Assembly (NCBI GenBank): GCA_902613705.1
Contig: CACMIG010000001.1
Location: forward strand, 115,667 to 179,666
Reading direction: 5' to 3'
Origin: an uncultured SAR86 cluster bacterium
GTDB taxonomy: Bacteria > Pseudomonadota > Gammaproteobacteria > Magnimaribacterales > D2472
Length of the DNA stretch: 64,000 nt
The notes beneath the pieces are model-generated. The model was not told the DNA's origin. It made no database searches and saw nothing but the letters and a program-made list of their open reading frames with translations. A program made the translations under genes and the position numbers. Position 1 is the first letter of the stretch, and each line of letters begins with the position of its first letter. Below, piece after piece: positions 1-14,591 of this stretch.

Positions 1-90
1 GTTTTGAGGGCAATCCGAGCATTATTAGTGGCATTAAAACAATATTAAAATCTTTCTAGTAAGAATAATATTTTTTTCATGAATTCTATT

Positions 91-483: not shown

Positions 484-494
484 ATTCTCTCCAG

Positions 495-2242: not shown

Positions 2243-2246
2243 TGTG

Positions 2247-3122
2247 TTAGTTCCTAGATTTAAAAAGATTTCTCATGAACGGGAGAATCCATATAATTTT
2301 TAGAAAACTTTTTGGAAATAGTCTGCTCATCAAATCATAAAAATGTGCATCTATACCAATCAATATCCTTTTATTTTTCTTTCTTATATTTTTAAGAATA
2401 ACTTTTGCTGCATGTTCTGGTGATGAAGGCGCATTTTGCTTAAATTTAATGCCTGCCTGCTCTTTTGTATCTGCATTTGCTCCAAACATTGCAGCATCCG
2501 CATCATCCTTTTCAAAACTTTTAAATTTTGCTGAAGAGTAAATGTTTGTTCCTATGTGGCCAGGAAAAACACAATAAGCTTCCACATTAGATTCAGCCAT
2601 TTCTAATTCAAGTGACAGAGATTCAGTAAAAGCCTTTACTCCAAATTTTCCAACATTGTAAATCGACTGTTTTGGGACACTAAAAAGACCGAATATTGAG
2701 GAGGTATTGATTATTGCAGCCTCAGGTCGCTTTTCTAAATGAGGTAGAAAAACCGTTGTCATTTGAATAACAGAATTAAGCAAAATATCTAACCCCCAAT
2801 TCCAATCATTCTCATCTATCTCATTGACTTTTCCGACTATGGATAATCCTGCATTATTAAATACTAGGTCTATTTGTTTATGAAATTCGATAACCTCGTT
2901 AGGCAAAGCTTGTACTTTTTCTTTATCGCTAATATCAAAATTATGAGTTGACACGGCGATATTCCTTTTCCTTAAAAGTTGTTTGGTTTCTTCAAGAGAT
3001 TCTTTATTCCAATCTACAAGTGCTAAATTACAACCCATGTCAGCAAGCTCTATTGATAGGGCTCTGCCTATTCCAGAACCGGCTCCAGAAATTAATGCTA
3101 CTTTTTGTGAAAAATCTTTCAA
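2247..3122 (-). CDS. short-chain dehydrogenase/reductase (SDR) family oxidoreductase
   Basis: N-terminal ALISGAGSGIGRA Rossmann motif, NNAG, Y-x3-K (YNVGK). Confidence 0.8.
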   Translation of the reverse strand: MKDFSQKVALISGAGSGIGRALSIELADMGCNLALVDWNKESLEETKQLLRKRNIAVSTHNFDISDKEKVQALPNEVIEFHKQIDLVFNNAGLSIVGKVNEIDENDWNWGLDILLNSVIQMTTVFLPHLEKRPEAAIINTSSIFGLFSVPKQSIYNVGKFGVKAFTESLSLELEMAESNVEAYCVFPGHIGTNIYSSAKFKSFEKDDADAAMFGANADTKEQAGIKFKQNAPSSPEHAAKVILKNIRKKNKRILIGIDAHFYDLMSRLFPKSFLKIIWILPFMRNLFKSRN

Positions 3123-3448
3123 TATATATCTGTTTTATAAATATTAACTACGGTTACACCTATGACTATAAGAAATAATCCTGCAATTGTCTGCCAATTT
3201 AAAGTTTGTTTATAGAAAAAGTAGCTCAATATTGCTATTGAAAATATCCCTACTCCTGACCATGAAGCATAAACGATTGAAAGCGGTAGTTTTTGAGAAA
3301 CAATAGCCAAAAAGTAAAATGATAGGGCATATGAAAATAATAAGATTGTCGTTGGTAAGATTTTTGTAAAGTTTTGTGATGCTGGTAAGAGCATGGTTCC
3401 AAATACTTCAAACAATATTGCAGAAAACAATATTAAATAAACGTTCAT
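3119..3448 (-). CDS. SMR (small multidrug resistance) family transporter
   Basis: 109 aa, four TM segments, conserved membrane Glu in the first TM (LFEVFGT). Confidence 0.75.
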   Translation of the reverse strand: MNVYLILFSAILFEVFGTMLLPASQNFTKILPTTILLFSYALSFYFLAIVSQKLPLSIVYASWSGVGIFSIAILSYFFYKQTLNWQTIAGLFLIVIGVTVVNIYKTDIY

Positions 3449-3810
3449 ATATTTTTTATGCTCTCTTCAAAATTTATTCCATCAAAGTAAATGACTTCTT
3501 TAATCTCTGGTGGATCATCTACACATTTAAGGTTAATGCTATACATTTCAGGATGAGACCTTGGTTGATAAAAGGACTTGATACCACACCTTTTGCAGAA
3601 AAAGTGTTTTGCTGAACCACTCTCAAAGTTATATTCTAAAAGTAAATCTTCTCCAGCGATAAGTTCAAAAAGTTCATGCTTTACGAAGAGATGCTGATAA
3701 TTAATCATGTCACAAATGGAACAATTGCAGTTCCATATTTCAACATTTTCATCTGATTTAAATTTGAATTTGACTCCACCACAATGACAGCTACCAGTGT
3801 ATTCTTTCAT
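3445..3810 (-). CDS. GFA (glutathione-dependent formaldehyde-activating)/CENP-V family protein
   Basis: GSCHCGGVKF and CNCSIC zinc-cysteine motifs; start placed at the internal MKEYTG rather than the ORF-track ATG at 3843. Confidence 0.65.
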   Translation of the reverse strand: MKEYTGSCHCGGVKFKFKSDENVEIWNCNCSICDMINYQHLFVKHELFELIAGEDLLLEYNFESGSAKHFFCKRCGIKSFYQPRSHPEMYSINLKCVDDPPEIKEVIYFDGINFEESIKNI

Positions 3811-3817
3811 AATTTTT

Positions 3818-3988
3818 CTATAACAAATATCCTGTAGCAACAAACATCCAAAATGCCATCATAGCTATAGTTAAAAAGAAAAATATTTGAGCCTGTTTTA
3901 TCTTATTCATTTGGTACAAAGATATACAAAATAAGATGCCAATAAATCCTATCGTTAATGCTACAAATAAATGCGCTTGATATGACAT
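3818..3988 (-). CDS. small hydrophobic hypothetical protein
   Basis: two predicted TM helices; start trimmed to MSYQAHL to avoid overlap with the upstream gene; no recognisable family. Confidence 0.3.
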   Translation of the reverse strand: MSYQAHLFVALTIGFIGILFCISLYQMNKIKQAQIFFFLTIAMMAFWMFVATGYLL

Positions 3989-3992
3989 TAAG

Positions 3993-4439
3993 TTAAATCC
4001 ATCTTCTTGTCTTATTTTTGTATTTTTCAAATTCATCACCAAAAAGCTTATCCATTACAATTTCTTCTGGAATAATTTGAAATCTTGTTATATAGCCAAC
4101 GAAGAGCATAGTAAGAATAGCCCCTCCTATTAAATTAAATTTAAATGATACTGCAAGAAGAATTAAAACCATTCCTAGATACATCGGGTTTCTTGAGTAT
4201 TTAAAAACTCCTGAAACAACCAAAGAAGTTGCTTTGTCAATATTTATAGGATTAATAGTCGTCTGTTGTGCTTTAAATGATCTGGCTGCTGATATAAGAG
4301 TAAGTGGGCCAACTATTATCAGCAATAAACTTAAAACATTCAAAATTACATTACTAAAGTAAGGGAATAAGGGTTTAGAAAAATAAATTGCTAATCCAAA
4401 CACTAAAGTAACAATTGGTGGTGGTATCTTATTATTCAT
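3993..4439 (-). CDS. isoprenylcysteine carboxyl methyltransferase (ICMT/PEMT-like) family membrane protein
   Basis: 148 aa membrane protein with YSRNPMYLG motif typical of this family. Confidence 0.65.
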   Translation of the reverse strand: MNNKIPPPIVTLVFGLAIYFSKPLFPYFSNVILNVLSLLLIIVGPLTLISAARSFKAQQTTINPINIDKATSLVVSGVFKYSRNPMYLGMVLILLAVSFKFNLIGGAILTMLFVGYITRFQIIPEEIVMDKLFGDEFEKYKNKTRRWI

Positions 4440-4525
4440 ACTATGAATTAAATCATATTTTTTTGATGCCTTAAATATATTGATTAATGTGCTTATAATA
4501 ATGTTAAGGGTTTTAGGAGATCAAA

Positions 4526-5464
4526 ATGCGTAATTCACTTTTTTATATTTTATTTATTTCCCTCTTTGCAATCTCAGATGATGGTTGCGAAGTTTCTAAA
4601 TGGGGTAAAGATGATGAGATTGGTTCTGCCAATCTAATATCAAATGCCAACACTTTAAATGCGATTAAACTTGTTAAAAAAGGTATGTCTCATGGTCTTG
4701 GAATTGTTATTGAGCCTGGGATGCCGGCTTTCCCGCCAAGATATACAGAATTACAAGTAGTTCAACCAAATCAACACTTTGGAAGAGATACAACTGAAGA
4801 TTTTGGATACGACATCACCTACAACGATGACATTTTGCAAATGTGGATTGGAACAGGACCTCAGCTGGATGGATTAGGTCATATTGGTGATGATGATATC
4901 TTTTATAACTGCCATAAAGGTGCAGACTTCTCTTATATAACTGGCCTAACTAAATTTGGTATTGAAAAAGTTCCTCCACTGGTTGGTAGAGGCGTGGTAG
5001 TAAATATGGCAAAGTATTTTGGAATAACTGCTATGGCTGGAGGTCAGGGAATTACAAGAGACGATATAAAAAATGCAGCCAAGCAACAAAACATTAAATT
5101 TAAAGAAGGAGATATTATTCTTTTCCACACTGGTTGGACTGATGCATACCTAAAAAGCTCTCCAGAATTATGGGGAAGTACAATACCAGGTATTACTAAT
5201 GATGCAGCTGTATATTTATCTTCACTTAATCCTATGGCTGTTGGAGCCGATACATGGGGACTAGGTGCAGTTCCTCCAGTTGAGGGCGATTTGGTTTACT
5301 ATGATCACGTAACTCTTATCAAGGAGAACGGTATTTATATATTAGAGACTATGAATACTGGTAAGTTGGCTGAGGATAATGTTACAGAATTCCTATTTGT
5401 CTTAGGTCAGCCAAAGCTTAAGGGTGCTGTTCAAATGATTATTAATCCTGTGGCTCTTTGGTAG
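4526..5464 (+). CDS. putative cyclase/formamidase-family protein, secreted
   Basis: 312 aa, N-terminal signal-like segment, QLDGLGHIG and FHTGW motifs resembling the cyclase family. Confidence 0.5.
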   Translation: MRNSLFYILFISLFAISDDGCEVSKWGKDDEIGSANLISNANTLNAIKLVKKGMSHGLGIVIEPGMPAFPPRYTELQVVQPNQHFGRDTTEDFGYDITYNDDILQMWIGTGPQLDGLGHIGDDDIFYNCHKGADFSYITGLTKFGIEKVPPLVGRGVVVNMAKYFGITAMAGGQGITRDDIKNAAKQQNIKFKEGDIILFHTGWTDAYLKSSPELWGSTIPGITNDAAVYLSSLNPMAVGADTWGLGAVPPVEGDLVYYDHVTLIKENGIYILETMNTGKLAEDNVTEFLFVLGQPKLKGAVQMIINPVALW

Positions 5465-6311
5465 ACATATTAAAATTAGACCTTAAGAAAGATGAAATAG
5501 TTTGTCTTATGATTTCATCTTCTTCTTCAGAAAAGTAATAATGTCCGCCTCCGTCAATTGTTAAAAGTTGATGTTGGTCTTTTAATTTCTCATCTAGAAG
5601 CACTGCTTGCTCATATGGTACCCACCTGTCACTTGTACCATGAATTGTTAAAACATTTAGATTAATTCCATCTAATATGTTTATTGGTGAAAGTGTTTTA
5701 GTAATTTGATCAATGTTTGCATCAGATCCAATCCATCCTTTTACATAATTTGAAGCATTAAAGAACTTTGTTTTATCTAAAAATTCTGAAGTTTGCTTAA
5801 TTTCTGTTATACCAAAAATATTTATTATAGCTTTAGGCGGAATTTCACCTTCACATTCTTTATTATTATAGTTGGCTGATAAGCCAACCATTAATGCTAG
5901 ATGTCCCCCGGCACTAGCACCAGCTACAATAATATCTTCAGTAGAAAGATTTCTTAGCGAAGCATCGTGGATTATTTTTTTGTATGCGCAAATTACATCA
6001 TCAACTGCATTTGGAGCAGTTAACTTACCTATTCTGTAACCAATCATGTAAACATTAAAATCTTGATGATCAATAAAATGATTTTGAAATCTTTTTATCC
6101 ACCTCTCAGCTCTTTTGTCACCATATAACCACCCACCCCCATGGATCCAAACCAAAACCTTGTCTGAAGAGCCTTTATAAAAATCAATTCTTTGTTTTTC
6201 GTCATTGCCGTATGAGATTTCATTTATATCTAATACCTCACTAGAAATTACAAGCAAAGGTATGAGCAACAAAGTTATCTTTATTAAATTGATTAATTTA
6301 TCGGTCTTCAT
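5442..6311 (-). CDS. alpha/beta hydrolase (esterase/lipase, HGGG type)
   Basis: HGGGW oxyanion motif and GASAGGHLA nucleophile elbow; signal-like N-terminus. Confidence 0.7.
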   Translation of the reverse strand: MKTDKLINLIKITLLLIPLLVISSEVLDINEISYGNDEKQRIDFYKGSSDKVLVWIHGGGWLYGDKRAERWIKRFQNHFIDHQDFNVYMIGYRIGKLTAPNAVDDVICAYKKIIHDASLRNLSTEDIIVAGASAGGHLALMVGLSANYNNKECEGEIPPKAIINIFGITEIKQTSEFLDKTKFFNASNYVKGWIGSDANIDQITKTLSPINILDGINLNVLTIHGTSDRWVPYEQAVLLDEKLKDQHQLLTIDGGGHYYFSEEEDEIIRQTISSFLRSNFNMSTKEPQD

Positions 6312-6942
6312 AAAACTTGATATAAAAAAAGTACATTACAGCTGGAAGGATAACAACGCCAAAAAATACAAGAGATGAGGATTGATTTTCAATTGCTGCT
6401 GCACCAATACCGGAGAAGATTATTGCCACCCCAATATTTGTAATGCTAACCGCTAAAAAGAAAAATTTAAAAGAAATATTTGAAATTCCTGCAGTAATCG
6501 CAGTTAACTCAGCAAAACCTGGTATTGGTCTAGATATTATTAAACTTATGATGTTAAAATTTTTTAGTGAGGCTTCGGCTTCAATTAGTTCCTTATTGTT
6601 TAATACTTTTTTTGCAATGGGTCTTCCAGCAAAACGTCCTATTAAATAAGCTATCGATGCTCCAATATTTAAGCCTATCCATACAACAAGAGAGGAAGTA
6701 GCCCAACCCAAAGACATTCCTGCAAAAGTATTAGTAAGACCGTTGGGGACAGGCAAAAAAACATCAGCGGTTAAGGCTAAAATTACTATTAAAGAAATTA
6801 ATAATTTGTTGGATCCGGCCCAATCGAGAGCAATTTCACCATAATTTGCGAGTGGAGTTTCTAAAAAAGTCATTGGCAAAACTATAGAGGTAAAGATAAT
6901 CACACTAAAAAAAATAAATTTAATCCAAAGTGGTATTTTCAT
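6298..6942 (-). CDS. TVP38/TMEM64 (DedA-related, VTT domain) membrane protein
   Basis: 214 aa polytopic membrane protein; pattern similar to VTT-domain proteins. Confidence 0.5.
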   Translation of the reverse strand: MKIPLWIKFIFFSVIIFTSIVLPMTFLETPLANYGEIALDWAGSNKLLISLIVILALTADVFLPVPNGLTNTFAGMSLGWATSSLVVWIGLNIGASIAYLIGRFAGRPIAKKVLNNKELIEAEASLKNFNIISLIISRPIPGFAELTAITAGISNISFKFFFLAVSITNIGVAIIFSGIGAAAIENQSSSLVFFGVVILPAVMYFFYIKFYEDR

Positions 6943-6953
6943 TTAATTGTTCT

Positions 6954-7436
6954 TTACACTTTTTTCCATACTAACAAATCTTTAAATCCATTAAATTCAG
7001 CTGATAGTGTTAGTAAGGTATTTTTTGATGAAAACGAGTACTCTCTTGTTAATGTGGTATCGACCCATTGAGGCAATAGACTAAGCTCTACATTATGATA
7101 TACATTCGATTTGTCTGCGTTAAATGTACCAGCATATGATACATATCCGTTTGATGCCAAAAAAAAGTTCTTAATAGTCTCTAATAAATCACCATCAAAT
7201 GAGATTTCGTTTTCATTTTTTAACATCTTACTAATCTTTGAAATCTTTAACCTATCATCAGATACATTTACACGATTTTTTTGCATTAAATTTGCAGACA
7301 TCCATCCATCAGGGTGATATATCAAATAGCCAGCAACATTGCCTGAAAAGGGATATTTTTTTTCGCCTTCTGGTTTTTCAACAGACCATTCAAACAGTTT
7401 CCATGTTCCTATAAACTTTTGTTGATGCTCTTTCAT
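6954..7436 (-). CDS. lipocalin-like domain protein
   Basis: FIGTWKLFEW start typical of bacterial lipocalin-like domain proteins. Confidence 0.45.
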   Translation of the reverse strand: MKEHQQKFIGTWKLFEWSVEKPEGEKKYPFSGNVAGYLIYHPDGWMSANLMQKNRVNVSDDRLKISKISKMLKNENEISFDGDLLETIKNFFLASNGYVSYAGTFNADKSNVYHNVELSLLPQWVDTTLTREYSFSSKNTLLTLSAEFNGFKDLLVWKKV

Positions 7437-7768
7437 TCTATTTTCTCACAATCCAATGCATAGCCACTTATTTCAAAACCTGCTTTAGAATTTAGTTGAT
7501 TTGAAATTACGCCAGCATTTCCTCCCCTTTCAACTATTTTATTTTTAAACTCAGTTATAGCATTTCTTCTATCAGCACCTGCTGTCATTGATTTTTTACC
7601 AAATGCATTAATTGGAGTAACTTCTATGCAATTAAAGTTCTCTTTTTGCTTGAGAGTAATTATTTGAACTTGTTGATCAATATTTGGAGATAAAGTTGTT
7701 GTACAGCCAAGTAAAAAAAATATAGGGGTGGTGACTAAAATATTTTTATACTTTTCTTTTATATTCAT
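7433..7768 (-). CDS. small lipoprotein (DUF4156-like)
   Basis: lipobox LLGC, 111 aa, C-terminal ERGGNAGV pattern. Confidence 0.45.
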   Translation of the reverse strand: MNIKEKYKNILVTTPIFFLLGCTTTLSPNIDQQVQIITLKQKENFNCIEVTPINAFGKKSMTAGADRRNAITEFKNKIVERGGNAGVISNQLNSKAGFEISGYALDCEKIE

Positions 7769-7837
7769 TCAAATCGAATTTGTTTTAAGGACAACTCTTG
7801 TTCAAAATTTCATAACTGTTTTAGATTGGATTCGTAA

Positions 7838-8248
7838 CTACGACTCCTTATTTGGGTTCCAAATTACTAAGTTTTTAGTTTTAAGTCTGTTTACTACCAA
7901 CTTATATCTTGATTGTTCTTCCTTCCACTCTTTTAGCCAATTAGCTCCATCTCTCTCTGCATCAACAAATATTGCGTTAGTAAATGCAAGAGGCAATATT
8001 ACTCCTATGTGTATTATTATGCTTGCAATAGTATTATATCCAAACCATCCTAAATAATTTGCTGCTAAAAACCCAAAGAATGCGCTCCACACTGTGAACA
8101 AAACTAACATGAAATATGTTTGTAAGCTTGGATCAGGTATATACTTTAATGGATTATATCTCACGTCCATTACTCTTCTCCAACCACTTACTATTTTCAT
8201 TACACTTCTTCTAAAAAGGCTGGGTTTCTTCATACTTGGCTCAATCAT
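7838..8248 (-). CDS. hypothetical membrane protein
   Basis: 136 aa with two hydrophobic helices; no family recognised. Confidence 0.45.
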   Translation of the reverse strand: MIEPSMKKPSLFRRSVMKIVSGWRRVMDVRYNPLKYIPDPSLQTYFMLVLFTVWSAFFGFLAANYLGWFGYNTIASIIIHIGVILPLAFTNAIFVDAERDGANWLKEWKEEQSRYKLVVNRLKTKNLVIWNPNKES

Positions 8249-8345
8249 TACTACTCCTGTTGAATCTTACAAACTCCTTGATCACATGCATTCCAACACT
8301 TATCCATGTTACCGCAATTAAACTCCAAAATAATATCTCAATCAT
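8241..8345 (-). CDS. possible 34-aa membrane peptide, translationally coupled to the downstream ORF
   Basis: hand-translated MIEILFWSLIAVTWISVGMHVIKEFVRFNRSSND; its TGA overlaps the ATG of 7838..8248 (AATGATTGA). Confidence 0.25.
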   Translation of the reverse strand: MIEILFWSLIAVTWISVGMHVIKEFVRFNRSSND

Positions 8346-8398
8346 ATGAATTTACAATCTTGATTTACAAATTATACAGTGATTTATGCAACCTTTTT

Positions 8399-9085
8399 TC
8401 ATCGTCTTGAAAGTATAACGATCCAGCGGCCAAGATTTAAAATATCGGCTAGTGCAGCCGACACATATGTCAGAGCTGCTGCCCTAAGAACCTGACTAAC
8501 GGCTTTTTCATTTGACTGCGATACATAATTCCCTTCCCTTAATATGGGTAAGGCTTTAGAAAAACTTGCATCAAATTCAATAGGCAATGTGACTGCATGA
8601 ACCATCATGCGAGCAATAAAGCCAGACAGCCCTAAGAATAGTAATAAAGAAAATGGCATTGGATGCCTCGTAATAATGCCGATTACTGGCGATAATGAAA
8701 TAATGGAAACGCTCCATCGGGCTACCACATCAACAACTGGAGCCATCTTTGTTCTTGTAGCCAGCCGTTTATCACCTTGATGATCTTGGATAGCATGTCC
8801 AACCTCATGAGCAGCAATAGCGATTGCGGTCAACGACTTTGATTCATAATGCTCTCGTAAAAGTCTAACTTTTTTTTCAATAGGATCATAATGATCTCCA
8901 AGCTCAGTTGTTTCAACCTCAACATCTTTTAAAGAAAATCGCTTAATCAAATGCTTTGCGAGCTCTCCACCAGTGCCAGGCATTTCAGGCTTTTCAGTTG
9001 AATAACGCCTCATGACAAACTTCACCCACAAAGATGGTCCAAATATTATTGCTAATACTATTAGGGCGCCTAACGCGTACAACAT
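8399..9085 (-). CDS. membrane-anchored zinc metallopeptidase (Zn_peptidase_2 family)
   Basis: HEVGHAIQ zinc motif and HYDP...VRL pattern typical of this family. Confidence 0.8.
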   Translation of the reverse strand: MLYALGALIVLAIIFGPSLWVKFVMRRYSTEKPEMPGTGGELAKHLIKRFSLKDVEVETTELGDHYDPIEKKVRLLREHYESKSLTAIAIAAHEVGHAIQDHQGDKRLATRTKMAPVVDVVARWSVSIISLSPVIGIITRHPMPFSLLLFLGLSGFIARMMVHAVTLPIEFDASFSKALPILREGNYVSQSNEKAVSQVLRAAALTYVSAALADILNLGRWIVILSRR

Positions 9086-9104
9086 ATTTTATCCTTGTAA
9101 AAAA

Positions 9105-9479
9105 TTATTCTTTTACTTGTTCTTTTCTGAGAGTATATCCTGCTAATAAAGCTAAAATAAATAAAGCTGGTATGTCACCTAAAAAATGTCCCATTTCATG
9201 GCTATCGATGGCGGCTTGATAAGCCATAATCCCTCCATGAACAACACTGCTCCATACTACAAACCAGACAAACATTGAATGTCTTACTGGGTCGTTTGAG
9301 GCAATTATCATCATAACTCCAAGGGTCATATAGACTCCTTGAATCATCATTTCGTATTCCCATTGAGCAGGACTCCAGGCCCAACCACCCAAAGGATCTA
9401 ATTTCATCATTGGGATAATAAATATAAAAGCTACTCCAAAGACTCTTAAAGTATTCTTTAATATCAATAAATTGTTCAT
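9105..9479 (-). CDS. hypothetical membrane protein (distal array module)
   Basis: 124 aa, three to four TM helices, strong SD (AAAGGAGTAAGAT-ATG) immediately after repeat unit R1. Confidence 0.6.
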   Translation of the reverse strand: MNNLLILKNTLRVFGVAFIFIIPMMKLDPLGGWAWSPAQWEYEMMIQGVYMTLGVMMIIASNDPVRHSMFVWFVVWSSVVHGGIMAYQAAIDSHEMGHFLGDIPALFILALLAGYTLRKEQVKE

Positions 9480-9498
9480 ATCTTACTCCTTTATCAAC

Positions 9499-9567
9499 AA
9501 ACTCACAGTTAAAACTTACTCTACCGTGACTGATTAGTTTTGAACAGTGATTTGATTTATCTTTCAT
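9499..9567 (-). repeat. array unit R1: arm + glmS 3'-end copy + arm
   Basis: degenerate arm aaactcacagtt 9499-9510; glmS-end copy 9516-9533 reads TCA GTC ACG GTA GAG TAA (SVTVE*) on the minus strand; arm aacagtgattt 9543-9553. Confidence 0.85.
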
Positions 9568-9745
9568 TTTCTACATCCTCCAAAATAATGTGTTCCATAA
9601 GAAAAGGTGGAACATATAACACCCTTGATTACACTTCCTCTTTCGCCACTTGGAACATATATAAAAAATGAAATGACAATTGTTGAAATTATTATAAATA
9701 TATAAAGATGTTTTTTTAAAAAACCCACTTATAAACTAATTACTT

Positions 9746-9813
9746 AAATCACTGTTTAAACTTACTCTACAGTGACTGACTTGAACAAAACAGTGATTTG
9801 ATTTTTTATTCAT
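9746..9813 (-). repeat. array unit R2
   Basis: arm aaatcactgtt 9746-9756; copy 9762-9782 reads AAG TCA GTC ACT GTA GAG TAA (KSVTVE*); arm aacagtgattt 9789-9799 plus conserved gattttttattcat tail. Confidence 0.9.
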
Positions 9814-10012
9814 TGTTTTTTAAAAGTTGATGTCTGTAGAAAAGAATGCCGAACCAAATTGAAAAGATAAAAACTTCTAGGGTTATCATCAAATTATAAT
9901 TTTCAACAAAATTGGGAATAATGATAATTGTCAGCATGCCGAAGAATCCAGTTAATGTTCCACCTACAAAAGAATCGTTTTTCTTAAGATAGTTCTGTAA
10001 CATTTCTTTCAT
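9806..10012 (-). CDS. small membrane protein (array module)
   Basis: 68 aa, two TM helices; bounded by a 12-bp inverted arm pair (9788-9799 and 10016-10027); stop codon lies in the conserved repeat tail. Confidence 0.5.
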   Translation of the reverse strand: MKEMLQNYLKKNDSFVGGTLTGFFGMLTIIIIPNFVENYNLMITLEVFIFSIWFGILFYRHQLLKNNE

Positions 10013-10015
10013 CTT

Positions 10016-10076
10016 AAATCACTGTTTCCTTTATCTCCACCATCACTGATTGGTTTTAAACTTTGATTTAATTCTT
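10016..10076 (-). repeat. array unit R3 (stop codon of the glmS-end copy deleted)
   Basis: arm aaatcactgttt 10016-10027; copy 10035-10049 reads TCA GTG ATG GTG GAG followed by ATAAAGG, the same heptamer that follows the real glmS stop; degenerate arm aaactttgattt 10057-10068. Confidence 0.8.
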
Positions 10077-10519
10077 TATTTTCCAGTTGAAATATTTATT
10101 GGAATTATAGCGATCTTTAATTTCCAATAATCTCCTCTTTTTATTAAAGTTATATTTGTATCGGTAGATATAAGTTCAACATCTTGGTTGTTAAATCTGG
10201 TGAAGTTAGTTTTATATATTGCAAAATCTTCTTGTGAAACTATTGGATCTATTGAATTGATTTTTGAATATGCCCAACCTTCTTTTTTTAAGTTTTCATA
10301 ATTAACAATTTCACTATAACTTTTTGCAACTATTATTTCATCGCCAACAAAATAAGTCATTGGTAAATCCCATAGTTCATTAATTTTATTTATATCCATC
10401 TCATTGAAATGATAGAAAAAATCTTCGATAACTTTCTCTGGGTTGTTGTTTGCGTCTTTTGCAAATAACAAAGAAGAAAATAAAAATGAAGTTAATAAAA
10501 TGTTTCTAATATAAATCAC
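10076..10519 (-). CDS. secreted NTF2-fold-like hypothetical protein (array module)
   Basis: 147 aa with signal peptide; GTG start lies inside an orphan arm; fold call is tentative. Confidence 0.5.
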   Translation of the reverse strand: MIYIRNILLTSFLFSSLLFAKDANNNPEKVIEDFFYHFNEMDINKINELWDLPMTYFVGDEIIVAKSYSEIVNYENLKKEGWAYSKINSIDPIVSQEDFAIYKTNFTRFNNQDVELISTDTNITLIKRGDYWKLKIAIIPINISTGK

Positions 10520-11039
10520 TGTTTTCTTCTATTAATTTATTTTTATATAATCTTGTTCCAACTAAAAGGTCGCTGTTATATTCTCTTACTTTATAGATTA
10601 AATTGTCTTTAAACTTAAAAACCCAAACATATTTATTGTCGTATTCACCATTTATGCCCTCAGCATCTCCTTCTTGAATTAGCGCGACACCTTCAGTATC
10701 TGCAATTATGTCAATGGTCTTTAATACTATTCCATTTGGTAATAGCTCGCCAACAACTGGCCAATAATCTGAAAAGAAATCCTCTTTCCCGTAAGAAATT
10801 CCCCCTTTACCATATGGCCCATTTACATTTTCAGTTATGCCCATATAGATAAAGGTAAATTCTTCGTGCATTGAATTTTTTACATCATCCAAGTTGTTTG
10901 ACAAAAGATTGTCTATCCAATTTTGGGCTAATTCAATATTTTCATTAGTAACTTTGTCGACTTCGATATATTGCACATTTGAATACTCACATGAGAATAA
11001 AAACATCAAACCAAAAACTAACATGTAAATTTTTTTCAT
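10506..11039 (-). CDS. SnoaL/NTF2-like lipoprotein (array module)
   Basis: start moved to MKKIYMLVFGLMFLFSC (lipobox, SD GAGAGAGGA upstream); the ORF-track start is 11063. Confidence 0.55.
   Translation of the reverse strand: MKKIYMLVFGLMFLFSCEYSNVQYIEVDKVTNENIELAQNWIDNLLSNNLDDVKNSMHEEFTFIYMGITENVNGPYGKGGISYGKEDFFSDYWPVVGELLPNGIVLKTIDIIADTEGVALIQEGDAEGINGEYDNKYVWVFKFKDNLIYKVREYNSDLLVGTRLYKNKLIEENSDLY
10513..10523. repeat. orphan arm (aaatcactgtt) at the junction of two array ORFs
   Basis: exact 11-mer identical to the left arms of R2, R3 and R8; no adjacent glmS-end copy. Confidence 0.6.
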
Positions 11040-11130
11040 AATTAAATCCTCTCTCACTTTCATATATCCTAAATAATATTTAATACATAATAAATTATAT
11101 TTAATAAGTACATTTTTTATACTTATTTTT

Positions 11131-11216
11131 AAAACTCACACATAATATGAGGTTATAGCGAAAAACCGAGAAAACTTACTCTACAGTTAATGATTAATTT
11201 TAAACAGTGATTTAAT
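11131..11216 (-). repeat. array unit R5 (left arm displaced by a ~30-bp insertion)
   Basis: degenerate arm aaaactcaca 11131-11140; copy 11176-11193 reads TCA TTA ACT GTA GAG TAA (SLTVE*); arm aacagtgattt 11203-11213. Confidence 0.8.
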
Positions 11217-11243
11217 TCTTTATTTTCCAGTTGAAATATTTAT
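11209..11243 (-). repeat. 35-bp exact duplicate of the 3' end of the 147-aa module (10065-10099)
   Basis: gatttaattctttattttccagttgaaatatttat is identical at both sites and covers the last 8 codons plus stop of ORF 10076..10519. Confidence 0.9.
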
Positions 11244-11264
11244 AGATGAAAGTACGTATATCCT

Positions 11265-11316
11265 TCATTCGACGGTGATTGATTAGATTTGAACAGTGAT
11301 TTGATTTTTTATCCAT
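11265..11316 (-). repeat. array unit R6 (no left arm)
   Basis: copy 11265-11282 reads TCA ATC ACC GTC GAA TGA (SITVE*); arm gaacagtgatttgattttttatccat from 11291. Confidence 0.8.
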
Positions 11317-11503
11317 AATTGTCTGAAAAATATTTTTCTCTATCTTCTTTATTCATGCCAACTGTTTCGTTCATAAAATTGTTTCTATCTTCTCTAGATT
11401 TGAAGACCCATATACAAACAGTGTCCTGTGAGTGATAGATTGCTTTTAGTTCATCATCTATTTCACAGATTTCTTTTGGGATTTCTGTCTTAATACAAAT
11501 CAT
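11309..11503 (-). CDS. hypothetical protein (array module)
   Basis: 64 aa; ATGA overlap with the upstream ORF; stop codon inside the conserved repeat tail. Confidence 0.45.
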   Translation of the reverse strand: MICIKTEIPKEICEIDDELKAIYHSQDTVCIWVFKSREDRNNFMNETVGMNKEDREKYFSDNYG

Positions 11504-11886
11504 GACTCAAATCTTAACTTTCTGTGTATCAATGTAAACAAACCTGCTCCAATTATAGTCCATAGAATATCATTCCAATCGAAGACACCTCTTCCAGGTG
11601 TAAAAATTGTAATGAACTCATTGGCAATTAATCCCGATATGGAGATTCCTACTGACCAATAGAGTCGATTTTTAAATAAAGATGAATTAGGTTTGGATAC
11701 TTCTGGAATTACTACATATAACAGAGCAGGCAATCCAATTCCTGGCAAGAAATTTGGAGCAACCCCAAGAAGATAAATTATTATTTCATTAGCACCATCA
11801 TAATTTGGTCTTATGTAATCCTGGACTATAGAAAAAAGCAAAAAAGAAATAGCAAAAATAATGTAATAAACGAACTTTCTATTCAT
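11500..11886 (-). CDS. membrane protein, possibly VanZ-like (array module)
   Basis: 128 aa, four TM helices; ANEF...PGRGVFDWNDILWTIIGAG loosely resembles VanZ-family motifs. Confidence 0.5.
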   Translation of the reverse strand: MNRKFVYYIIFAISFLLFSIVQDYIRPNYDGANEIIIYLLGVAPNFLPGIGLPALLYVVIPEVSKPNSSLFKNRLYWSVGISISGLIANEFITIFTPGRGVFDWNDILWTIIGAGLFTLIHRKLRFES

Positions 11887-11891
11887 TTAAT

Positions 11892-11933
11892 TTATTCAAC
11901 AGTTACTGATTAAGTTCGAACAGTGATTTACTC
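11892..11933 (-). repeat. array unit R7 (no left arm)
   Basis: copy 11892-11909 reads TCA GTA ACT GTT GAA TAA (SVTVE*, all changes synonymous); arm gaacagtgattta 11918-11930. Confidence 0.85.
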
Positions 11934-12056
11934 TTCCTTGTAATCGTCTGCGAGAATCCCCTTTTCTTTTAAAGTCTTTGTAAGTTTTTCTAGACGCACA
12001 AGTGCAACCACTCCGACCATTCCAAACACAAAACCCATTACTGCCAACCCTTCCAT
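11928..12056 (-). CDS. unlisted 42-aa membrane peptide (array module)
   Basis: hand translation MEGLAVMGFVFGMVGVVALVRLEKLTKTLKEKGILADDYKEE; SD AAAGGGAGAG 4 nt before ATG; bounded by perfect 13-bp inverted arms; below the ORF-track size cutoff. Confidence 0.55.
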   Translation of the reverse strand: MEGLAVMGFVFGMVGVVALVRLEKLTKTLKEKGILADDYKEE

Positions 12057-12070
12057 AATTCTCTCCCTTT

Positions 12071-12104
12071 AAATCACTGTTCCAACTTACTCCACCGTAA
12101 CGAA
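12071..12104 (-). repeat. array unit R8 (arm + glmS-end copy)
   Basis: arm aaatcactgtt 12071-12081; copy 12087-12104 reads TTC GTT ACG GTG GAG TAA (FVTVE*). Confidence 0.85.
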
Positions 12105-12108
12105 GTAT

Positions 12109-12126
12109 ATAAAGGTGTCTACTTTT
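12109..12126. repeat. left 18-bp terminal inverted repeat of the GIY-YIG module
   Basis: ataaaggtgtctactttt is the exact reverse complement of 12747-12764; overlaps the stop codon of the GIY-YIG ORF. Confidence 0.9.
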
Positions 12127-12733
12127 AATTTTCTTCAACTTCCCTTCTTAATTCTGATAGTGTTTTACCATTATGTGTCCAAAATCTAGGACCTTGGATT
12201 TTCCCCCAATTATAACCTTGTTCATTCATTAGAATTAATGCTGCACTTGAAAGAGAATGGTCTTGTCCTCGAAAATTAACTCTAGTTTTTGAGGTTACCT
12301 CACAAGTAATATTTTCATCTCTTGTAAATTTTAATATTGTTCCAGGTTGGATATTTACCATATTAAAATTAAATCGTTCTCTTATTCTTGTCTCATTTTC
12401 AAAGGCAACTCTATCTTCTTCGGTTTCAAAGTTTTCTCCTTGTGGGGTTACATCATTGCCTGGTATCAAATCAAAAAAATGTATTAATTCTTCCTCAAGA
12501 ATCCTAAAGAATTCTCTTCTGTTATTAAGTCTTTTGCTGCCAAATGCAGCATGAAGTTTTGTTTCAACAAAATCCATGTCTTCTACTTCTTTTGCGTAAA
12601 TACATTCAAATGGCAATGGAACTCCTGTGCTATATAAAGATGATAGTCTTTGTTCAAGATTAGTGGTTTTGCCTATTTTTACCAAATCTGGCATTGCGGG
12701 ATTTGTTAAAACATAAATTATCCCTTTTGACAT
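12125..12733 (-). CDS. GIY-YIG nuclease superfamily protein (T5orf172/MUG113-like N-terminus, possibly DUF4357-like C-terminus)
   Basis: GIIYVLTNPAMPDLVKIGKTTNLEQRLSSLYSTGVPLPFE matches my recollection of the T5orf172 pattern; the C-terminal LSSAALILMN...NGKTLSELR call is tentative. Confidence 0.65.
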   Translation of the reverse strand: MSKGIIYVLTNPAMPDLVKIGKTTNLEQRLSSLYSTGVPLPFECIYAKEVEDMDFVETKLHAAFGSKRLNNRREFFRILEEELIHFFDLIPGNDVTPQGENFETEEDRVAFENETRIRERFNFNMVNIQPGTILKFTRDENITCEVTSKTRVNFRGQDHSLSSAALILMNEQGYNWGKIQGPRFWTHNGKTLSELRREVEEN

Positions 12734-12746
12734 AATTTTATCTAAA

Positions 12747-12764
12747 AAAAGTAGACACCTTTAT
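12747..12764. repeat. right 18-bp terminal inverted repeat, abutting the glmS stop codon
   Basis: aaaagtagacacctttat ends 1 nt before the glmS TAG (12765-12767). Confidence 0.9.
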
Positions 12765-14591
12765 CTACTCCACCGTGACTGACTTTGCTAAATTTCTTGG
12801 TTGGTCAATGTCGGTTCCTCTTAACAAAGCTACTTCATAAGAAAGTATTTGAAGAGGTATCGTATAAATGATTGGCGTCAAAAGGAAGTCGCACTTTGGC
12901 ATATTGATGAGTCTTCCAGACTTTAAGTCCATTGAAATTGAAGGATCAGAAAATACATATAGAGTTCCGCCCCTAGCTTTAACTTCTTCTAAGTTTGATA
13001 CTAATTTTTCAGCTATCTCACTTTCTGGAGCTAAAGCAATAACTGGCATTTCTTCATCAATTAATGCGAGAGGACCGTGTTTTAACTCCCCAGCTGGATA
13101 GGCTTCAGCATGAATGTAAGAAATTTCTTTGAGCTTTAGAGCCCCTTCTTTTGCGATTGGATAAAAAATACCTCTGCCTAAAAACAAAGCATTATCTTTA
13201 TTAGCTATTTCAGGTGCGATTTCTAGAATTGTGTCTTTAAGTTTTAATGTTTCTTCGACCGTTTCTGGCAATGATCTTAATGCTGTTATTACTCTTGTTC
13301 TTAGCTTTGGATTTTTTCCCCTGCTTTTTGCAAGAGACAAAGCTAGCAACATTAAGGCTGCAAGTTGTGTTGTGAAGGCTTTTGTAGAGGCAACTCCAAT
13401 TTCAGGACCGGCGTTCGTAAATATTGAATACTCTGATTCTCTTGCAAGAGAACTTGTAGGAACATTACAAACACAAAGGGTGGATAGATAATCCTTTTCT
13501 TGTGCATATCTTAAAGCAGCAAGGGTATCAGCTGTTTCTCCAGATTGAGAAATTGTTACAAGGAGAGAGTCATCGTCCACATGGGGATTTCTATATCTAT
13601 ATTCAGAAGCATAGTCTATTTGTGTAGGAAGTTCTGAAATTGCTGAAAACCAATTAGCTGCAACCCTTCCAGCATGCAAGCTTGTTCCACAGGCCACAAT
13701 TTGGACTCTCTTAACTTTTTCGAAGATTTCAGATGAACCAAGACCAAATATATTTTCTAAAACATCGTCTCCGCCTACTCTCCCATCAATGGTCTTTAGA
13801 ATTGCTTCTGGTTGCTCATAAATTTCTTTCTCCATGAAATGCCGATATTCGCCTTTAGATATAGCTTGACTTGAAATATCTATTTGAGAAATTTCTCTTT
13901 TTACTTTGTTCTTAGACTCATCAAAAATGGTATAAGTCTCAGATGATAATTCTGCTACGTCTCCGTCTTCTAAAAAAATAAACTCATTGGTAAGTTGGCC
14001 AATCGCCAATGGGTCTGATGCAGCCAAAAATTCATCCATTCCAATTCCTATTAAAAGTGGAGATTTGCTTCTAGCAATAATAATATTTTGATCGTCTTCT
14101 TTGTCTATAGCTGCTATTGCATAAGCGCCATCGAGCTTTTCTTTGGTTAAATACATTGAATCTAACATGCTATTTCCTTTATTAAGGAAATATTCAAGAA
14201 GGTGAGCTATTAATTCAGAATCTGTTTGGGATGAAAAAGAATAACCTTCTTTTTTTAAAAAATCTTTAAGATCTAGATAATTCTCAATTATTCCATTGTG
14301 AACGATATAAACTCTTTCATTTGACATATGTGGATGTGCATTTTCTTCTGATGGTTCTCCGTGAGTTGCCCATCTAGTGTGAGCAATGCCAAGCTTACTT
14401 TTTGGCTTTTCAGCAATCATTTTTTCTTCTAGTAGCTGTACTTTTCCTTGAGTTCTAAGATGAGCAATTTGGTCTGTTTGATGAAGAGCAATTCCAGCAG
14501 AATCATAGCCACGGTATTCCATTTTATGTAGTCCTTGAACAAGCAACTTTCCAACGTTTCGATTTGAGGCAGCAGCTATAATTCCACACAT
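12765..14591 (-). CDS. glmS: glutamine--fructose-6-phosphate aminotransferase
   Basis: MCGII N-terminal nucleophile, 608 aa, canonical C-terminus LAKSVTVE. Confidence 0.97.
   Translation of the reverse strand: MCGIIAAASNRNVGKLLVQGLHKMEYRGYDSAGIALHQTDQIAHLRTQGKVQLLEEKMIAEKPKSKLGIAHTRWATHGEPSEENAHPHMSNERVYIVHNGIIENYLDLKDFLKKEGYSFSSQTDSELIAHLLEYFLNKGNSMLDSMYLTKEKLDGAYAIAAIDKEDDQNIIIARSKSPLLIGIGMDEFLAASDPLAIGQLTNEFIFLEDGDVAELSSETYTIFDESKNKVKREISQIDISSQAISKGEYRHFMEKEIYEQPEAILKTIDGRVGGDDVLENIFGLGSSEIFEKVKRVQIVACGTSLHAGRVAANWFSAISELPTQIDYASEYRYRNPHVDDDSLLVTISQSGETADTLAALRYAQEKDYLSTLCVCNVPTSSLARESEYSIFTNAGPEIGVASTKAFTTQLAALMLLALSLAKSRGKNPKLRTRVITALRSLPETVEETLKLKDTILEIAPEIANKDNALFLGRGIFYPIAKEGALKLKEISYIHAEAYPAGELKHGPLALIDEEMPVIALAPESEIAEKLVSNLEEVKARGGTLYVFSDPSISMDLKSGRLINMPKCDFLLTPIIYTIPLQILSYEVALLRGTDIDQPRNLAKSVTVE

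What the first reader, a model, noticed from the sequence alone, without database searches (positions are those of the whole stretch)
9516..12782. The displaced glmS-end copies diverge mainly at synonymous positions and keep encoding SVTVE-stop
I read each central block on the minus strand in the glmS frame. The real gene is TCA GTC ACG GTG GAG TAG, encoding S V T V E stop. R1 is TCA GTC ACG GTA GAG TAA (SVTVE*). R2 is AAG TCA GTC ACT GTA GAG TAA (KSVTVE*). R7 is TCA GTA ACT GTT GAA TAA (SVTVE*), with five differences that are all codon third positions or stop-for-stop. R6 is TCA ATC ACC GTC GAA TGA (SITVE*). R5 is TCA TTA ACT GTA GAG TAA (SLTVE*). R8 is TTC GTT ACG GTG GAG TAA (FVTVE*). R3 is TCA GTG ATG GTG GAG with the stop codon missing, followed by ATAAAGG, the same heptamer that follows the real stop. 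Substitutions cluster at third positions, amino-acid changes are mostly conservative (V to I or L), and stop codons are swapped for other stop codons. That pattern fits selection on a protein sequence rather than decay of a DNA repeat. Inference: each copy once served, or was built to serve, as the working end of GlmS. The KSVTVE C-terminus is strongly conserved among GlmS proteins (established knowledge). An incoming element carrying its own replacement gene end, as elements targeting 3' ends of tRNA or protein genes do, would explain this. A more speculative alternative is that synonymous recoding protects occupied sites from a site-specific nuclease, as in homing-endonuclease immunity.
Basis: partly seen in the sequence, partly recalled or inferred. 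Interest (0 to 1): 0.88.

Follow-up and report, generated by a model that had tools for sequence, protein, structure and literature searches.

The report
Recombinase-built gene-cassette array at glmS end
The repeated "GlmS-end" motifs are the junctions of a stack of small mobile gene cassettes inserted, most likely by a large serine recombinase, into the last codons of the essential gene glmS of a marine SAR86 bacterium; it resembles the staphylococcal SCC system, and I found no published description of it.

Summary
Seven displaced copies of the last 18 nt of glmS lie at 9516-12104. Of their 30 differences from the live end, 23 fall on codon third positions (p=1.5e-6).

The same arrays occur downstream of glmS in 63 of 76 related SAR86 genomes. 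There, 86% of differences are at third positions.

Each copy is a junction between two small cassettes (median 0.66 kb) and is a chimera. TCNGTNA comes with the upstream cassette. CNGTNGARTAR comes with the downstream cassette and is a former, or ready-made, glmS end.

Cassette ends are inverted repeats whose symmetry axis falls between A7 and C8 of the Thr codon in 78 of 87 cases. Linkage places the crossover in the same 2 bp.

A clade of large serine recombinases sits directly at the glmS stop in 18 of 18 loci where both genes are visible. In 48 of 64 homologues the same junction motif follows the recombinase gene.

So the "replacement gene end" idea holds for the right-hand 11 nt only. The left half never encoded GlmS, and its periodicity probably reflects a recombinase that ignores wobble positions (inference).

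The closest known system is SCCmec. The recombinase acting on this window's cassette arms has not been identified.

The parts
12765..14591 (-). glmS (608 aa), ending ...AKSVTVE-stop. It is the integration target.
   Evidence: ORF list and translation. 59-98% identical to GlmS of 80 mostly SAR86 loci.
12765..12782 (-). Live junction core TCAGTCA|CGGTGGAGTAG. The inferred crossover dinucleotide A7-C8 is at 12776-12775. Under the model, the last 11 nt are supplied by cassette 1.
   Evidence: At live ends the wobble positions 9-18 track the first cassette's arm and not the host.
12098..12775 (-). Cassette 1 (678 nt). Cargo is a 202-aa T5orf172/MUG113 (GIY-YIG-like) protein at 12125-12733. Terminal inverted repeats ATAAAGGTGTCTACTTTT lie at 12747-12769 and 12104-12126.
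   Evidence: Pfam. Inverted repeat I6, 96% complementary. The same arm type follows glmS in L044 and L079.
12087..12104 (-). R8 junction core TTCGTTA|CGGTGGAGTAA. The left half comes from cassette 1 and the right half from cassette 2.
   Evidence: TTCGTNA consistently accompanies the GTAGACACCTTTATACAC arm in relatives.
11903..12097 (-). Cassette 2 (195 nt). Cargo is a 42-aa small membrane protein MEGLAVMGF... at 11928-12056. R arm AACAGTGATTT at 12071-12081; L arm AAATCACTGTT at 11919-11929.
   Evidence: Homologues directly follow junction cores in L015, L061, L096/L097, L113 and L181.
11892..11909 (-). R7 junction core TCAGTAA|CTGTTGAATAA.
   Evidence: This 18-mer is a live glmS end in one other SAR86 genome.
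11276..11902 (-). Cassette 3 (627 nt). ORFs of 128 aa (11500-11886, membrane) and 64 aa (11309-11503). L arm at 11292-11302. No recognisable R arm.
11265..11282 (-). R6 junction core TCAATCA|CCGTCGAATGA.
11187..11275 (-). Cassette 4 (89 nt, no ORF). It is a remnant holding only a cassette tail plus an L arm (11203-11213). The tail is 86% identical to 10035-10099.
   Evidence: (families D1, D4).
11176..11193 (-). R5 junction core TCATTAA|CTGTAGAGTAA.
10043..11186 (-). Cassette(s) 5, probably two fused cassettes. ORF 185 aa at 10506-11063 and ORF 147 aa at 10076-10519. Between them is a solitary R arm AACAGTGATTT at 10513-10523 whose core has decayed.
   Evidence: no Pfam match.
10032..10049 (-). 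R3 junction core TCAGTGA|TGGTGGAGATA. It is decayed: C8 to T, and the stop TAG to ATA.
   Evidence: The same junction with GAGATG is present in L010.
9773..10042 (-). Cassette 6 (270 nt). ORF of 68 aa at 9806-10012. R arm at 10016-10026; L arm at 9789-9799.
9762..9779 (-). R2 junction core (AAG)TCAGTCA|CTGTAGAGTAA.
9527..9772 (-). Cassette 7 (246 nt). Possible 54-aa ORF at 9564-9728. R arm at 9746-9756; L arm at 9543-9553.
9516..9533 (-). R1 junction core TCAGTCA|CGGTAGAGTAA, followed by a degenerate R arm AACTGTGAGTT (9500-9510).
8375..9515 (-). Possible oldest, fixed cassette: DUF6632 (9105-9479) plus Zn_peptidase_2 (8399-9085), closed by an L-like arm AAATCACTGTA (8375-8385). No recognisable core follows. 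In relatives, Zn_peptidase_2 onward is conserved backbone.
   Evidence: the L085 backbone has the same gene order.

Best explanation
The region is a tandem array of small, mostly single-gene mobile cassettes. They were stacked by site-specific recombination inside the last codons of glmS.

Each free cassette would carry an attachment site of about 54 bp or more: L arm - nnnn TCNGTNA|CNGTNGARTAR - R arm. This site is an imperfect palindrome centred on the dinucleotide A-C, the first two bases of the Thr codon of ...SVTVE.

Recombination with the glmS end exchanges DNA at that dinucleotide.
- glmS keeps its own ...TCNGTNA.
- glmS receives CNGTNGARTAR (the rest of Thr, then Val, Glu and stop) from the cassette.
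- The cassette's other end (L arm + TCNGTNA) is joined to the displaced former end.

Repeating this leaves one chimeric 'SVTVE-stop' 18-mer between every pair of cassettes, newest next to glmS.

The enzyme is most likely a large serine recombinase (LSR) of a clade that is specific for the glmS 3' end. It is carried by rare 6-10 kb elements that also encode a rolling-circle Rep. The recombinase-less cassettes would be moved in trans.

The third-position pattern has two causes. The right half must keep encoding TVE-stop. Both halves must be bound by a recombinase that has evolved to read only the invariant, non-wobble bases of a coding target.

Shown computationally: the anatomy, the symmetry axis, the crossover interval, the independent shuffling of cassettes, and the association of the LSR clade with the glmS end.

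Inferred: catalysis by the LSR, action in trans on this window's arm types, circular intermediates, and expression by read-through from glmS.
For: (1) Arrays of SVTVE-stop cores lie downstream of glmS in 63 of 76 SAR86 loci. There are 201 cores in 0.65 Mb, against 28 control hits in 2.46 Mb.

(2) Cassette ends are inverted repeats of 10 or more unrelated sequence types. In 78 of 87 cassettes with a clear repeat, the dyad axis is at core position 7.5.

(3) Linkage switches sharply. Positions -4 to 6 go with the L arm (z 10-15). Positions 9 to 18 go with the R arm (z 4.6-8.4). This confines exchange to A7-C8, as expected for the 2-bp stagger of a serine recombinase and not for the 6-8 bp overlap of a tyrosine recombinase.

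(4) L and R arm types at a junction are independent (z 1.4), and only 17 of 201 junctions have matching arms.

(5) The 201 cassettes fall into 144 families. Recurrent families occur at different array positions with different neighbours.

(6) A 551-aa protein with Resolvase, Recombinase and Zn_ribbon_recom domains ends a 6-kb element directly at the glmS stop in L006. Its catalytic motifs YTRVST..Q and DRLSR, and four Cys, are conserved across 15 homologues.

(7) In 18 of 18 loci showing both genes, the LSR element is the first element after glmS. In 17 of them a distal core was found, from 17 nt before to 43 nt after the LSR stop; no distal core was found in L146.

(8) 48 of 64 LSR homologues (31-73% identity; marine, freshwater and sediment samples) have an exact ACNGTNGARTRR within 260 nt after the gene. 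Chance expectation is about 0.002 per locus.

(9) At live ends, wobble positions 9-18 track the first cassette's arm and not the host.

(10) 117 of 134 cassette families have their longest ORF co-directional with glmS, starting a median of 51 nt after the core.
Against: - No recombinase gene is present in the window, and only 1 of the 76 SAR86 loci from the genome scan carries the LSR.
- The arm types of this window's cassettes (AACAGTGATTT and ATAAAGGTGTCTAC) were not found next to any LSR gene. LSR elements carry other, longer arms.
- A scan of viral contigs for the short-arm site found nothing.
- From my own knowledge, canonical phage LSRs recombine only attP with attB. Here, repeated insertion must use a target whose right half is already a cassette arm, that is, an attL-like site.
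- No circular cassette or empty site was observed directly. One 8.6-kb contig (L090) whose ends would close into an intact site is only suggestive.
- All evidence is comparative. Nothing was tested biochemically.
Confidence: 0.72

Rival explanations
1. An integron-like or other tyrosine-recombinase system. Cassettes would carry folded palindromic sites and be captured at an attI-like site at the glmS end.
For: Cassettes are small, mostly single-gene, highly diverse and co-oriented with an upstream gene. The L arm-core-R arm unit can form a 12-bp stem as single-stranded DNA.
Against: - No IntI, XerD or Cre-like protein was found by phmmer in the 80 loci plus the window.
- Exchange is confined to 2 bp rather than a 6-8 bp overlap.
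- The crossover lies in the middle of the palindrome, so 184 of 201 junctions have non-matching arms. Integron attC sites stay intact in arrays.
- Hairpins are weak (z about -1 to -2.7, 30-nt loops).
- A serine recombinase clade is physically tied to the site.
Confidence: 0.07
2. A fossil array now reshuffled only by homologous recombination or gene conversion. The cores would be relics of past integrations, and today's diversity would arise by RecA-dependent exchange using glmS and the downstream backbone, with no active cassette-level recombination.
For: The LSR is rare (1 of 76 loci). Several junctions and arms in the window are decayed (R3, the solitary arm at 10513-10523, the missing R arm of cassette 3). 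Some junctions are shared between genomes (R3 with L010).
Against: - Recurrent cassette families have different neighbours on both sides.
- Linkage breaks within a 2-bp interval of an 18-bp core. That is too short and too precise for homologous recombination.
- LSR elements are found newly inserted at the proximal position of existing arrays (L085).
Confidence: 0.12
3. One reading: homing-endonuclease immunity. Synonymous recoding of occupied sites would protect them from a site-specific nuclease, for example the T5orf172/GIY-YIG-like protein encoded next to glmS.
For: A T5orf172/MUG113 gene is the first cassette. Nuclease domains (HNH, GIY-YIG, NucS, PDDEXK) are the most frequent cargo.
Against: - The nuclease genes are bounded by the same inverted-repeat arms and the same axis as all other cargo.
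- They occupy variable positions in the arrays.
- The recoding pattern follows arm type (linkage) rather than the presence of a nuclease.
- Live ends vary in the same way in genomes without such cassettes.
Confidence: 0.03
4. Tn7-like, TnsD-directed transposition into attTn7 downstream of glmS.
For: From established knowledge, glmS is the classical Tn7 target and TnsD reads the conserved 3' coding region. A Tn7-like TnsA/TnsB end lies just after an LSR junction in Pseudidiomarina (L095).
Against: - Insertions are inside the coding sequence, not about 25 bp downstream of it.
- The flanks are 18-nt chimeric repeats, not 5-bp duplications.
- No Tns genes are present in the window or in the SAR86 arrays.
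- In L095 the LSR island lies between the glmS-end junction core and the Tn7-like end, so it occupies a site distinct from the Tn7 insertion point (glmS itself is outside the 10 kb held upstream).
Confidence: 0.02

Closest known systems
Staphylococcal cassette chromosome (SCC/SCCmec) arrays made by CcrAB/CcrC large serine recombinases at the 3' end of rlmH (orfX)
   Same: - A serine-recombinase element integrates into the 3' end of a conserved housekeeping gene near the replication origin and regenerates the gene end. Here the array is about 18 kb from dnaA.
- The elements are bounded by repeats of the site.
- Cassettes lie in tandem, and most lack a recombinase. In SCC these are mobilised in trans by the one cassette that has it (PMC11470126).
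- Defence genes are among the cargo.
   Different: - The target is glmS, not rlmH.
- The hosts are SAR86 and other aquatic bacteria, not staphylococci.
- There is a single LSR gene rather than a CcrA/CcrB pair.
- Cassettes are 10-100 times smaller (median 0.66 kb against 24-68 kb).
- Cassette arms are strong inverted repeats of many unrelated sequence types.
- Relatedness of this LSR clade to Ccr proteins was not measured.
Phage-type large serine integrases (Bxb1, phiC31, A118/LI)
   Same: - Domain architecture Resolvase + Recombinase + zinc ribbon.
- The attachment site lies next to the 3' end of the integrase gene.
- The site is about 50 bp, quasi-palindromic, and centred on a non-palindromic dinucleotide.
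   Different: - Phage LSRs are strictly attP x attB (my own knowledge). Here the target's right half changes with each insertion.
- The inner 18 bp of the attP-like and attB-like sites are alike because they must encode the GlmS tail.
Integrons (IntI, attI, attC cassettes)
   Same: The result is functionally alike: an ordered stack of small, promoterless-looking, co-oriented, highly diverse single-gene cassettes downstream of a fixed point, with the newest cassette proximal.
   Different: - The recombinase class differs (serine, not tyrosine).
- Recombination is by double-strand dyad sites crossed over at their centre, not folded single-stranded attC sites crossed over at one end.
- No integrase gene is fixed beside the array.
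Tn7 and Tn7-like elements at attTn7
   Same: They exploit the invariant GlmS C-terminal coding sequence as a safe, universal landing site. From established knowledge, recognition tolerates wobble variation.
   Different: Tn7 works by transposition downstream of the stop codon with a 5-bp duplication and carries no replacement gene end. Here there is conservative recombination inside the coding sequence.
Tycheposons of Prochlorococcus, and islands that target 3' gene ends (such as SGI1 in trmE)
   Same: These integrative elements build flexible islands in bacterial genomes, including streamlined marine ones. Tycheposons produce tandem-repeat junctions in cultures (bioRxiv 10.1101/2020.12.28.424599). 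That islands such as SGI1 restore the split target gene and leave a displaced fragment at the far end is from my own knowledge.
   Different: They mostly use tyrosine recombinases and tRNA targets (910 of 937 in that study). The elements are much larger. No glmS or SAR86 case is reported there.

Membership tests
Large serine recombinase (LSR) integrative elements | The recombinase has an N-terminal resolvase catalytic domain (Ser nucleophile; R, D-R...R motif), then a Recombinase domain and a zinc ribbon. | tested here: met
   L006:16176-17831 matches Resolvase (6e-24), Recombinase (1e-11) and Zn_ribbon_recom (3e-4). YTRVST..Q, DRLSR and four Cys are invariant or nearly invariant in 15 homologues. 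This protein is in relatives, not in the window itself.
Large serine recombinase (LSR) integrative elements | Attachment sites of about 40-60 bp with imperfect dyad symmetry around a central, non-palindromic dinucleotide. | tested here: met
   The dyad axis is at core position 7.5 (between A7 and C8) in 78 of 87 cassettes, whatever the arm sequence. A7 is present in 195 of 200 and C8 in 191 of 200 junctions.
Large serine recombinase (LSR) integrative elements | Strand exchange is confined to the 2-bp central dinucleotide. | tested here: met
   Linkage of variable positions switches from the L arm to the R arm between positions 6 and 9. This is indirect, from natural recombinants.
Large serine recombinase (LSR) integrative elements | Strict attP x attB partner choice. 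attL and attR are not substrates without a directionality factor. | tested here: inconclusive
   Arrays, and LSR elements inserted in front of existing cassettes (L085), imply use of targets whose right half is a cassette arm. Whether the enzyme tolerates this was not tested.
Large serine recombinase (LSR) integrative elements | The recombinase catalyses the reaction on these particular sites. | not testable with these tools
   This needs an in vivo or in vitro recombination assay. The cognate enzyme for the AACAGTGATTT and ATAAAGGTGTCTAC arms was not identified.
SCC-type cassette chromosome arrays | Tandem cassettes separated by copies of the att core, at the 3' end of a conserved gene that stays intact. 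The recombinase is present in at most one cassette. | tested here: met
   Described for SCC in PMC11470126.
SCC-type cassette chromosome arrays | Ccr-family recombinases and the rlmH target. | tested here: not met
   The target is glmS, and a single LSR gene is present. Similarity to CcrA/B/C was not measured. This is an analogue, not a member.
Integron | An IntI tyrosine recombinase gene next to attI. | tested here: not met
Integron | Intact attC palindromes at every cassette boundary, with the crossover at the R' (GTT) end. | tested here: not met
   The crossover is at the centre of the palindrome. Only 17 of 201 junctions have matching arms.
Tn7-like attTn7 insertion | Insertion about 25 bp downstream of the glmS stop, a 5-bp target duplication, and TnsABC+D genes. 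| tested here: not met
   The junctions are inside the last 11 nt of the coding sequence. No Tns genes are present in the window or the SAR86 arrays. A Tn7-like end is seen only in L095, downstream of an LSR junction.

The most novel reading that the evidence does not exclude
An undescribed gene-capture system that resembles an integron in its output and is driven by a serine recombinase. A broad clade of large serine recombinases, found in marine, freshwater and sediment bacteria, is specialised for the last four codons of glmS. It recognises only the non-wobble bases. It stacks miniature cassettes (0.2-2 kb) there, each carrying a ready-made GlmS tail. This would make the glmS end a major hotspot of flexible genes in SAR86, one of the most abundant heterotrophs in the surface ocean.
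Probability: 0.55. Interest if true: 0.82.

Novelty: new variant of a known kind. Interest (0 to 1): 0.72.

Why it matters
1. It would explain how a streamlined, uncultured and very abundant marine bacterium, with few classical mobile elements, acquires and shuffles accessory genes. The sample here holds 144 cassette families among 201 cassettes, many of them nucleases or defence genes.

2. It is a natural example of a recombinase site shaped by the genetic code. The 3-nt periodicity persists in a half-site that never encodes protein.

3. Recombinases whose natural target is the nearly universal ...SVTVE-stop end of glmS could become broad-host-range tools for site-specific integration, complementing Tn7.

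4. It extends the SCC principle, known from staphylococci and enterococci, to Gram-negative and aquatic bacteria, and to cassettes of integron size.

Tried and rejected
- Single-strand hairpin (attC-like) reading: folding L arm-core-R arm as DNA gives only a 12-bp stem with a 30-nt loop (dG about -8 kcal/mol, z -1 to -2.7). Most junctions also have unmatched arms. Rejected.
The only hit was the L006 LSR. Re-searching with that LSR found no further copy among the first 80 loci.
- Extended homology to glmS upstream of the copies: none.
- Scan of viral contigs for the short-arm attachment site: 0 hits.
- Literature searches (SAR86+glmS, SAR86+cassettes, serine recombinase+glmS+attB, 'end of glmS'+recombinase, SAR86+serine recombinase, tycheposon) found no description of this system.
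- Some 'large cassettes' in my junction set are false. A GCTGTCACTGTGGAGGAG inside the GFA gene mimics a core, also at window 3774-3791. About 7 of the 201 junctions are expected to be such chance hits, judging from the control rate.
- I could not link arm types to LSR lineages. L105 has an AAATCACT-containing arm, but 2 nt out of register.

Full report
**1. Observation**

glmS lies at 12765-14591 on the minus strand and ends TCA GTC ACG GTG GAG TAG. The window is the origin region of a low-GC (about 33%) gammaproteobacterium. The gene order is glmS-glmU-atp operon-parBA-gidBA-trmE-yidC-rnpA, then dnaA-dnaN-recF-gyrB.

No other match with 4 or fewer mismatches exists in the 64 kb.

Twenty-three of the 30 differences from the live end are at codon third positions (p=1.5e-6).

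**2. Anatomy in the window**

Read in the glmS direction, a full unit is AAATCACTGTT (L arm) - 9 nt - 18-nt core - 5 nt - AACAGTGATTT (R arm). The two 11-mers are inverted repeats. All ten exact copies in the window lie between 9543 and 12081.

The arms lie inside the segments bounded by the cores: core | R arm - ORF - L arm | core. Several junctions have only one arm.

The first segment (202-aa T5orf172/MUG113 protein) has different inverted ends, ATAAAGGTGTCTACTTTT (96% complementary).

The cores are therefore junctions between cassettes whose ends are terminal inverted repeats. The main ORFs of the cassettes point the same way as glmS.

**3. Relatives**

A scan of one genome per species with the GlmS protein returned 80 loci, nearly all SAR86 single-cell or metagenome-assembled genomes.

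- In 63 of 76 usable loci, SVTVE-stop cores recur downstream of glmS, up to nine per locus. There are 201 cores in 0.65 Mb, against 28 control hits in 2.46 Mb.
- Cassettes are small: median 663 bp, 5-95% range 170-2315 bp.
- They fall into 144 families. Recurrent families sit at different positions with different neighbours.
- In 117 of 134 families the longest ORF is co-directional with glmS and starts a median of 51 nt after the core.
- Cargo is very diverse. HNH, GIY-YIG, NucS, PDDEXK and ResIII nuclease domains are the most frequent Pfam hits, alongside assorted enzymes and many unknowns.
- Live glmS ends differ among SAR86 genomes at synonymous positions.

**4. The periodicity is real**

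- With position-blind detection, 86% of 335 differences are at third positions (controls 30-41%).
- When junctions are located only by their arms, codon positions 1 and 2 carry the major base in 84-100% of copies and third positions in 39-89%.
- There is no homology to glmS upstream of position -2.

**5. Where the crossover is**

- Cassette arms come in at least ten unrelated sequence types. Yet in 78 of 87 cassettes with a clear terminal inverted repeat, the symmetry axis falls at core position 7.5, between A7 and C8 of the Thr codon.
- The core is itself quasi-palindromic: TCNGTNA|CNGTNGA.
- Variable positions -4 to 6 co-vary with the L-arm type (z 10-15) and not with the R arm. Positions 9 to 18 co-vary with the R-arm type (z 4.6-8.4) and not with the L arm.
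- Arm types on the two sides of a junction are independent (z 1.4), and only 17 of 201 junctions have matching arms.

Each 18-mer is therefore a chimera. TCNGTNA arrives with the upstream cassette. CNGTNGARTAR belongs to the downstream cassette and is what was attached to glmS before the next insertion.

At live ends, the wobble positions 9-18 likewise track the first cassette's arm (z 2-3.5) and not the host, whereas position 3 tracks the host (z 4.6).

An exchange interval of 2 bp fits a serine recombinase and not the 6-8 bp overlap of a tyrosine recombinase.

**6. The enzyme candidate**

In L006, a 6-kb element sits directly at the glmS stop. It encodes a rolling-circle Rep (REP_ORF2-G2P), an Endonuclease_7-like protein and, last, a 551-aa large serine recombinase. 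Its catalytic motifs are conserved in homologues.

The protein database holds 376 homologues at E of 1e-10 or better.

- Wherever glmS and the recombinase gene are both visible (18 of 18 loci), the element is the first one after glmS. In 17 of them a distal core was found, from 17 nt before to 43 nt after the recombinase stop codon; none was found in L146.
- L085 is a SAR86 genome with the same downstream backbone as this window. There the element is inserted in front of a T5orf172 cassette.
- Of 64 metagenomic homologues (31-73% identity; marine, freshwater and sediment) with sequence after the gene, 48 have an exact ACNGTNGARTRR within 260 nt. Chance is about 0.002 per locus. Eleven have glmS upstream in the locus.
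- Arms differ between recombinase lineages.
- In Pseudidiomarina (L095), the junction after the LSR is followed by a Tn7-like end.

**7. Interpretation**

The best explanation is an SCC-like system. Rare autonomous LSR elements and many recombinase-less mini-cassettes integrate at the AC of the Thr codon. Each brings a replacement TVE-stop, and older cassettes are pushed distally.

The left 7 nt never encode GlmS, yet they show the same periodicity and tolerate non-synonymous forms such as TTC. SV is intact in 135 of 201 copies, against 163 of 201 for TVE-stop. Part of the pattern must therefore reflect recognition by a protein that ignores wobble positions. This is inference.

The homing-nuclease alternative, an integron-type mechanism and Tn7-type transposition each fail on tested features.

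**8. Open points**

- No recombinase is present in the window.
- The LSR is present in only 1 of the 76 genome-scan loci.
- The window's arm types were never seen beside an LSR gene.
- Insertion next to an existing cassette arm is not canonical LSR behaviour.
- No circles were observed. Contig L090 starts at C8 and ends at A7, so it would close into an intact site, but this is only suggestive.

**9. Literature**

Searches of the held library found no description of glmS-end serine-recombinase cassettes, nor any link with SAR86.

The SCC parallel is documented in PMC11470126: tandem cassettes flanked by Ccr att sites, with recombinase-less cassettes mobilised in trans.

I rate this a new variant of a known kind.

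Noticed in passing
window 11928-12056 (-): The 42-aa small membrane protein MEGLAVMGFVFGMVGVVALVRLEKLTKTLKEKGILADDYKEE is a cassette of its own. Homologues (45-100% identity) occur directly after junction cores in unrelated LSR lineages and hosts: L015, L061, L096/L097, L113, L181, L039/L044. It is unusually widespread for cargo, and its function is unknown.
   Followed up: partly
window 12125-12733 (-): The first cassette encodes a T5orf172/MUG113 (GIY-YIG-like) protein. Nuclease domains (HNH, GIY-YIG, NucS_C, PDDEXK, ResIII) are the most common Pfam hits among cassette cargo across SAR86. This suggests a concentration of defence genes, as reported for SCC arrays.
   Followed up: partly
window 10513-10523 and 8375-8385: A solitary R arm (AACAGTGATTT) overlaps the end of the 185-aa ORF and has no recognisable core. 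An L-like arm (AAATCACTGTA) lies just after Zn_peptidase_2, followed only by a very degenerate core-like stretch. These are probably decayed old junctions. DUF6632 plus Zn_peptidase_2 may be an ancient cassette that has become fixed.
   Followed up: partly
window 10035-10099 and 11179-11243: A 65-nt cassette tail (ATAAATATTTCAACTGGAAAATAAAGAATT plus the L arm) is shared at 86% identity by two cassettes. One of them is an 89-nt remnant without an ORF.
   Followed up: no
L090 (8626-nt metagenome contig): The contig begins exactly at C8 (CTGTCGAGTAA plus the R arm of the L081-type LSR element). It ends exactly at A7 (L arm plus TCCATTA). Joined end to end it would give an intact attachment site. 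It could be a circular form, or an assembly break at the point where flanks diverge.
   Followed up: partly
L095 11682-11900 (Pseudidiomarina taiwanensis): A distant LSR homologue (about 36% identity) ends an island of more than 10 kb that carries a type I restriction-modification system. Its junction (TCCAAAACAGTGGAATAA) is followed at once by the repeated end sequences and the TnsA/TnsB genes of a Tn7-like element. Two different glmS-targeting systems therefore sit side by side.
   Followed up: partly
window 3774-3791 (-) and the same gene in L001, L002, L005: GCTGTCAYTGTGGAGGAG inside a GFA-family gene (CHCGGV motif) mimics the core and produces false junction calls. It is unrelated to the array.
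   Followed up: yes
window 1-8400: Downstream of the array lies a run of small accessory-type genes: glyoxalases, an SDR, an SMR efflux protein, GFA, PEMT/ICMT-like, a cyclase, an esterase and a DedA-like protein. The same order is seen in L085, so this is conserved backbone in this SAR86 lineage and not part of the cassette array.
   Followed up: partly
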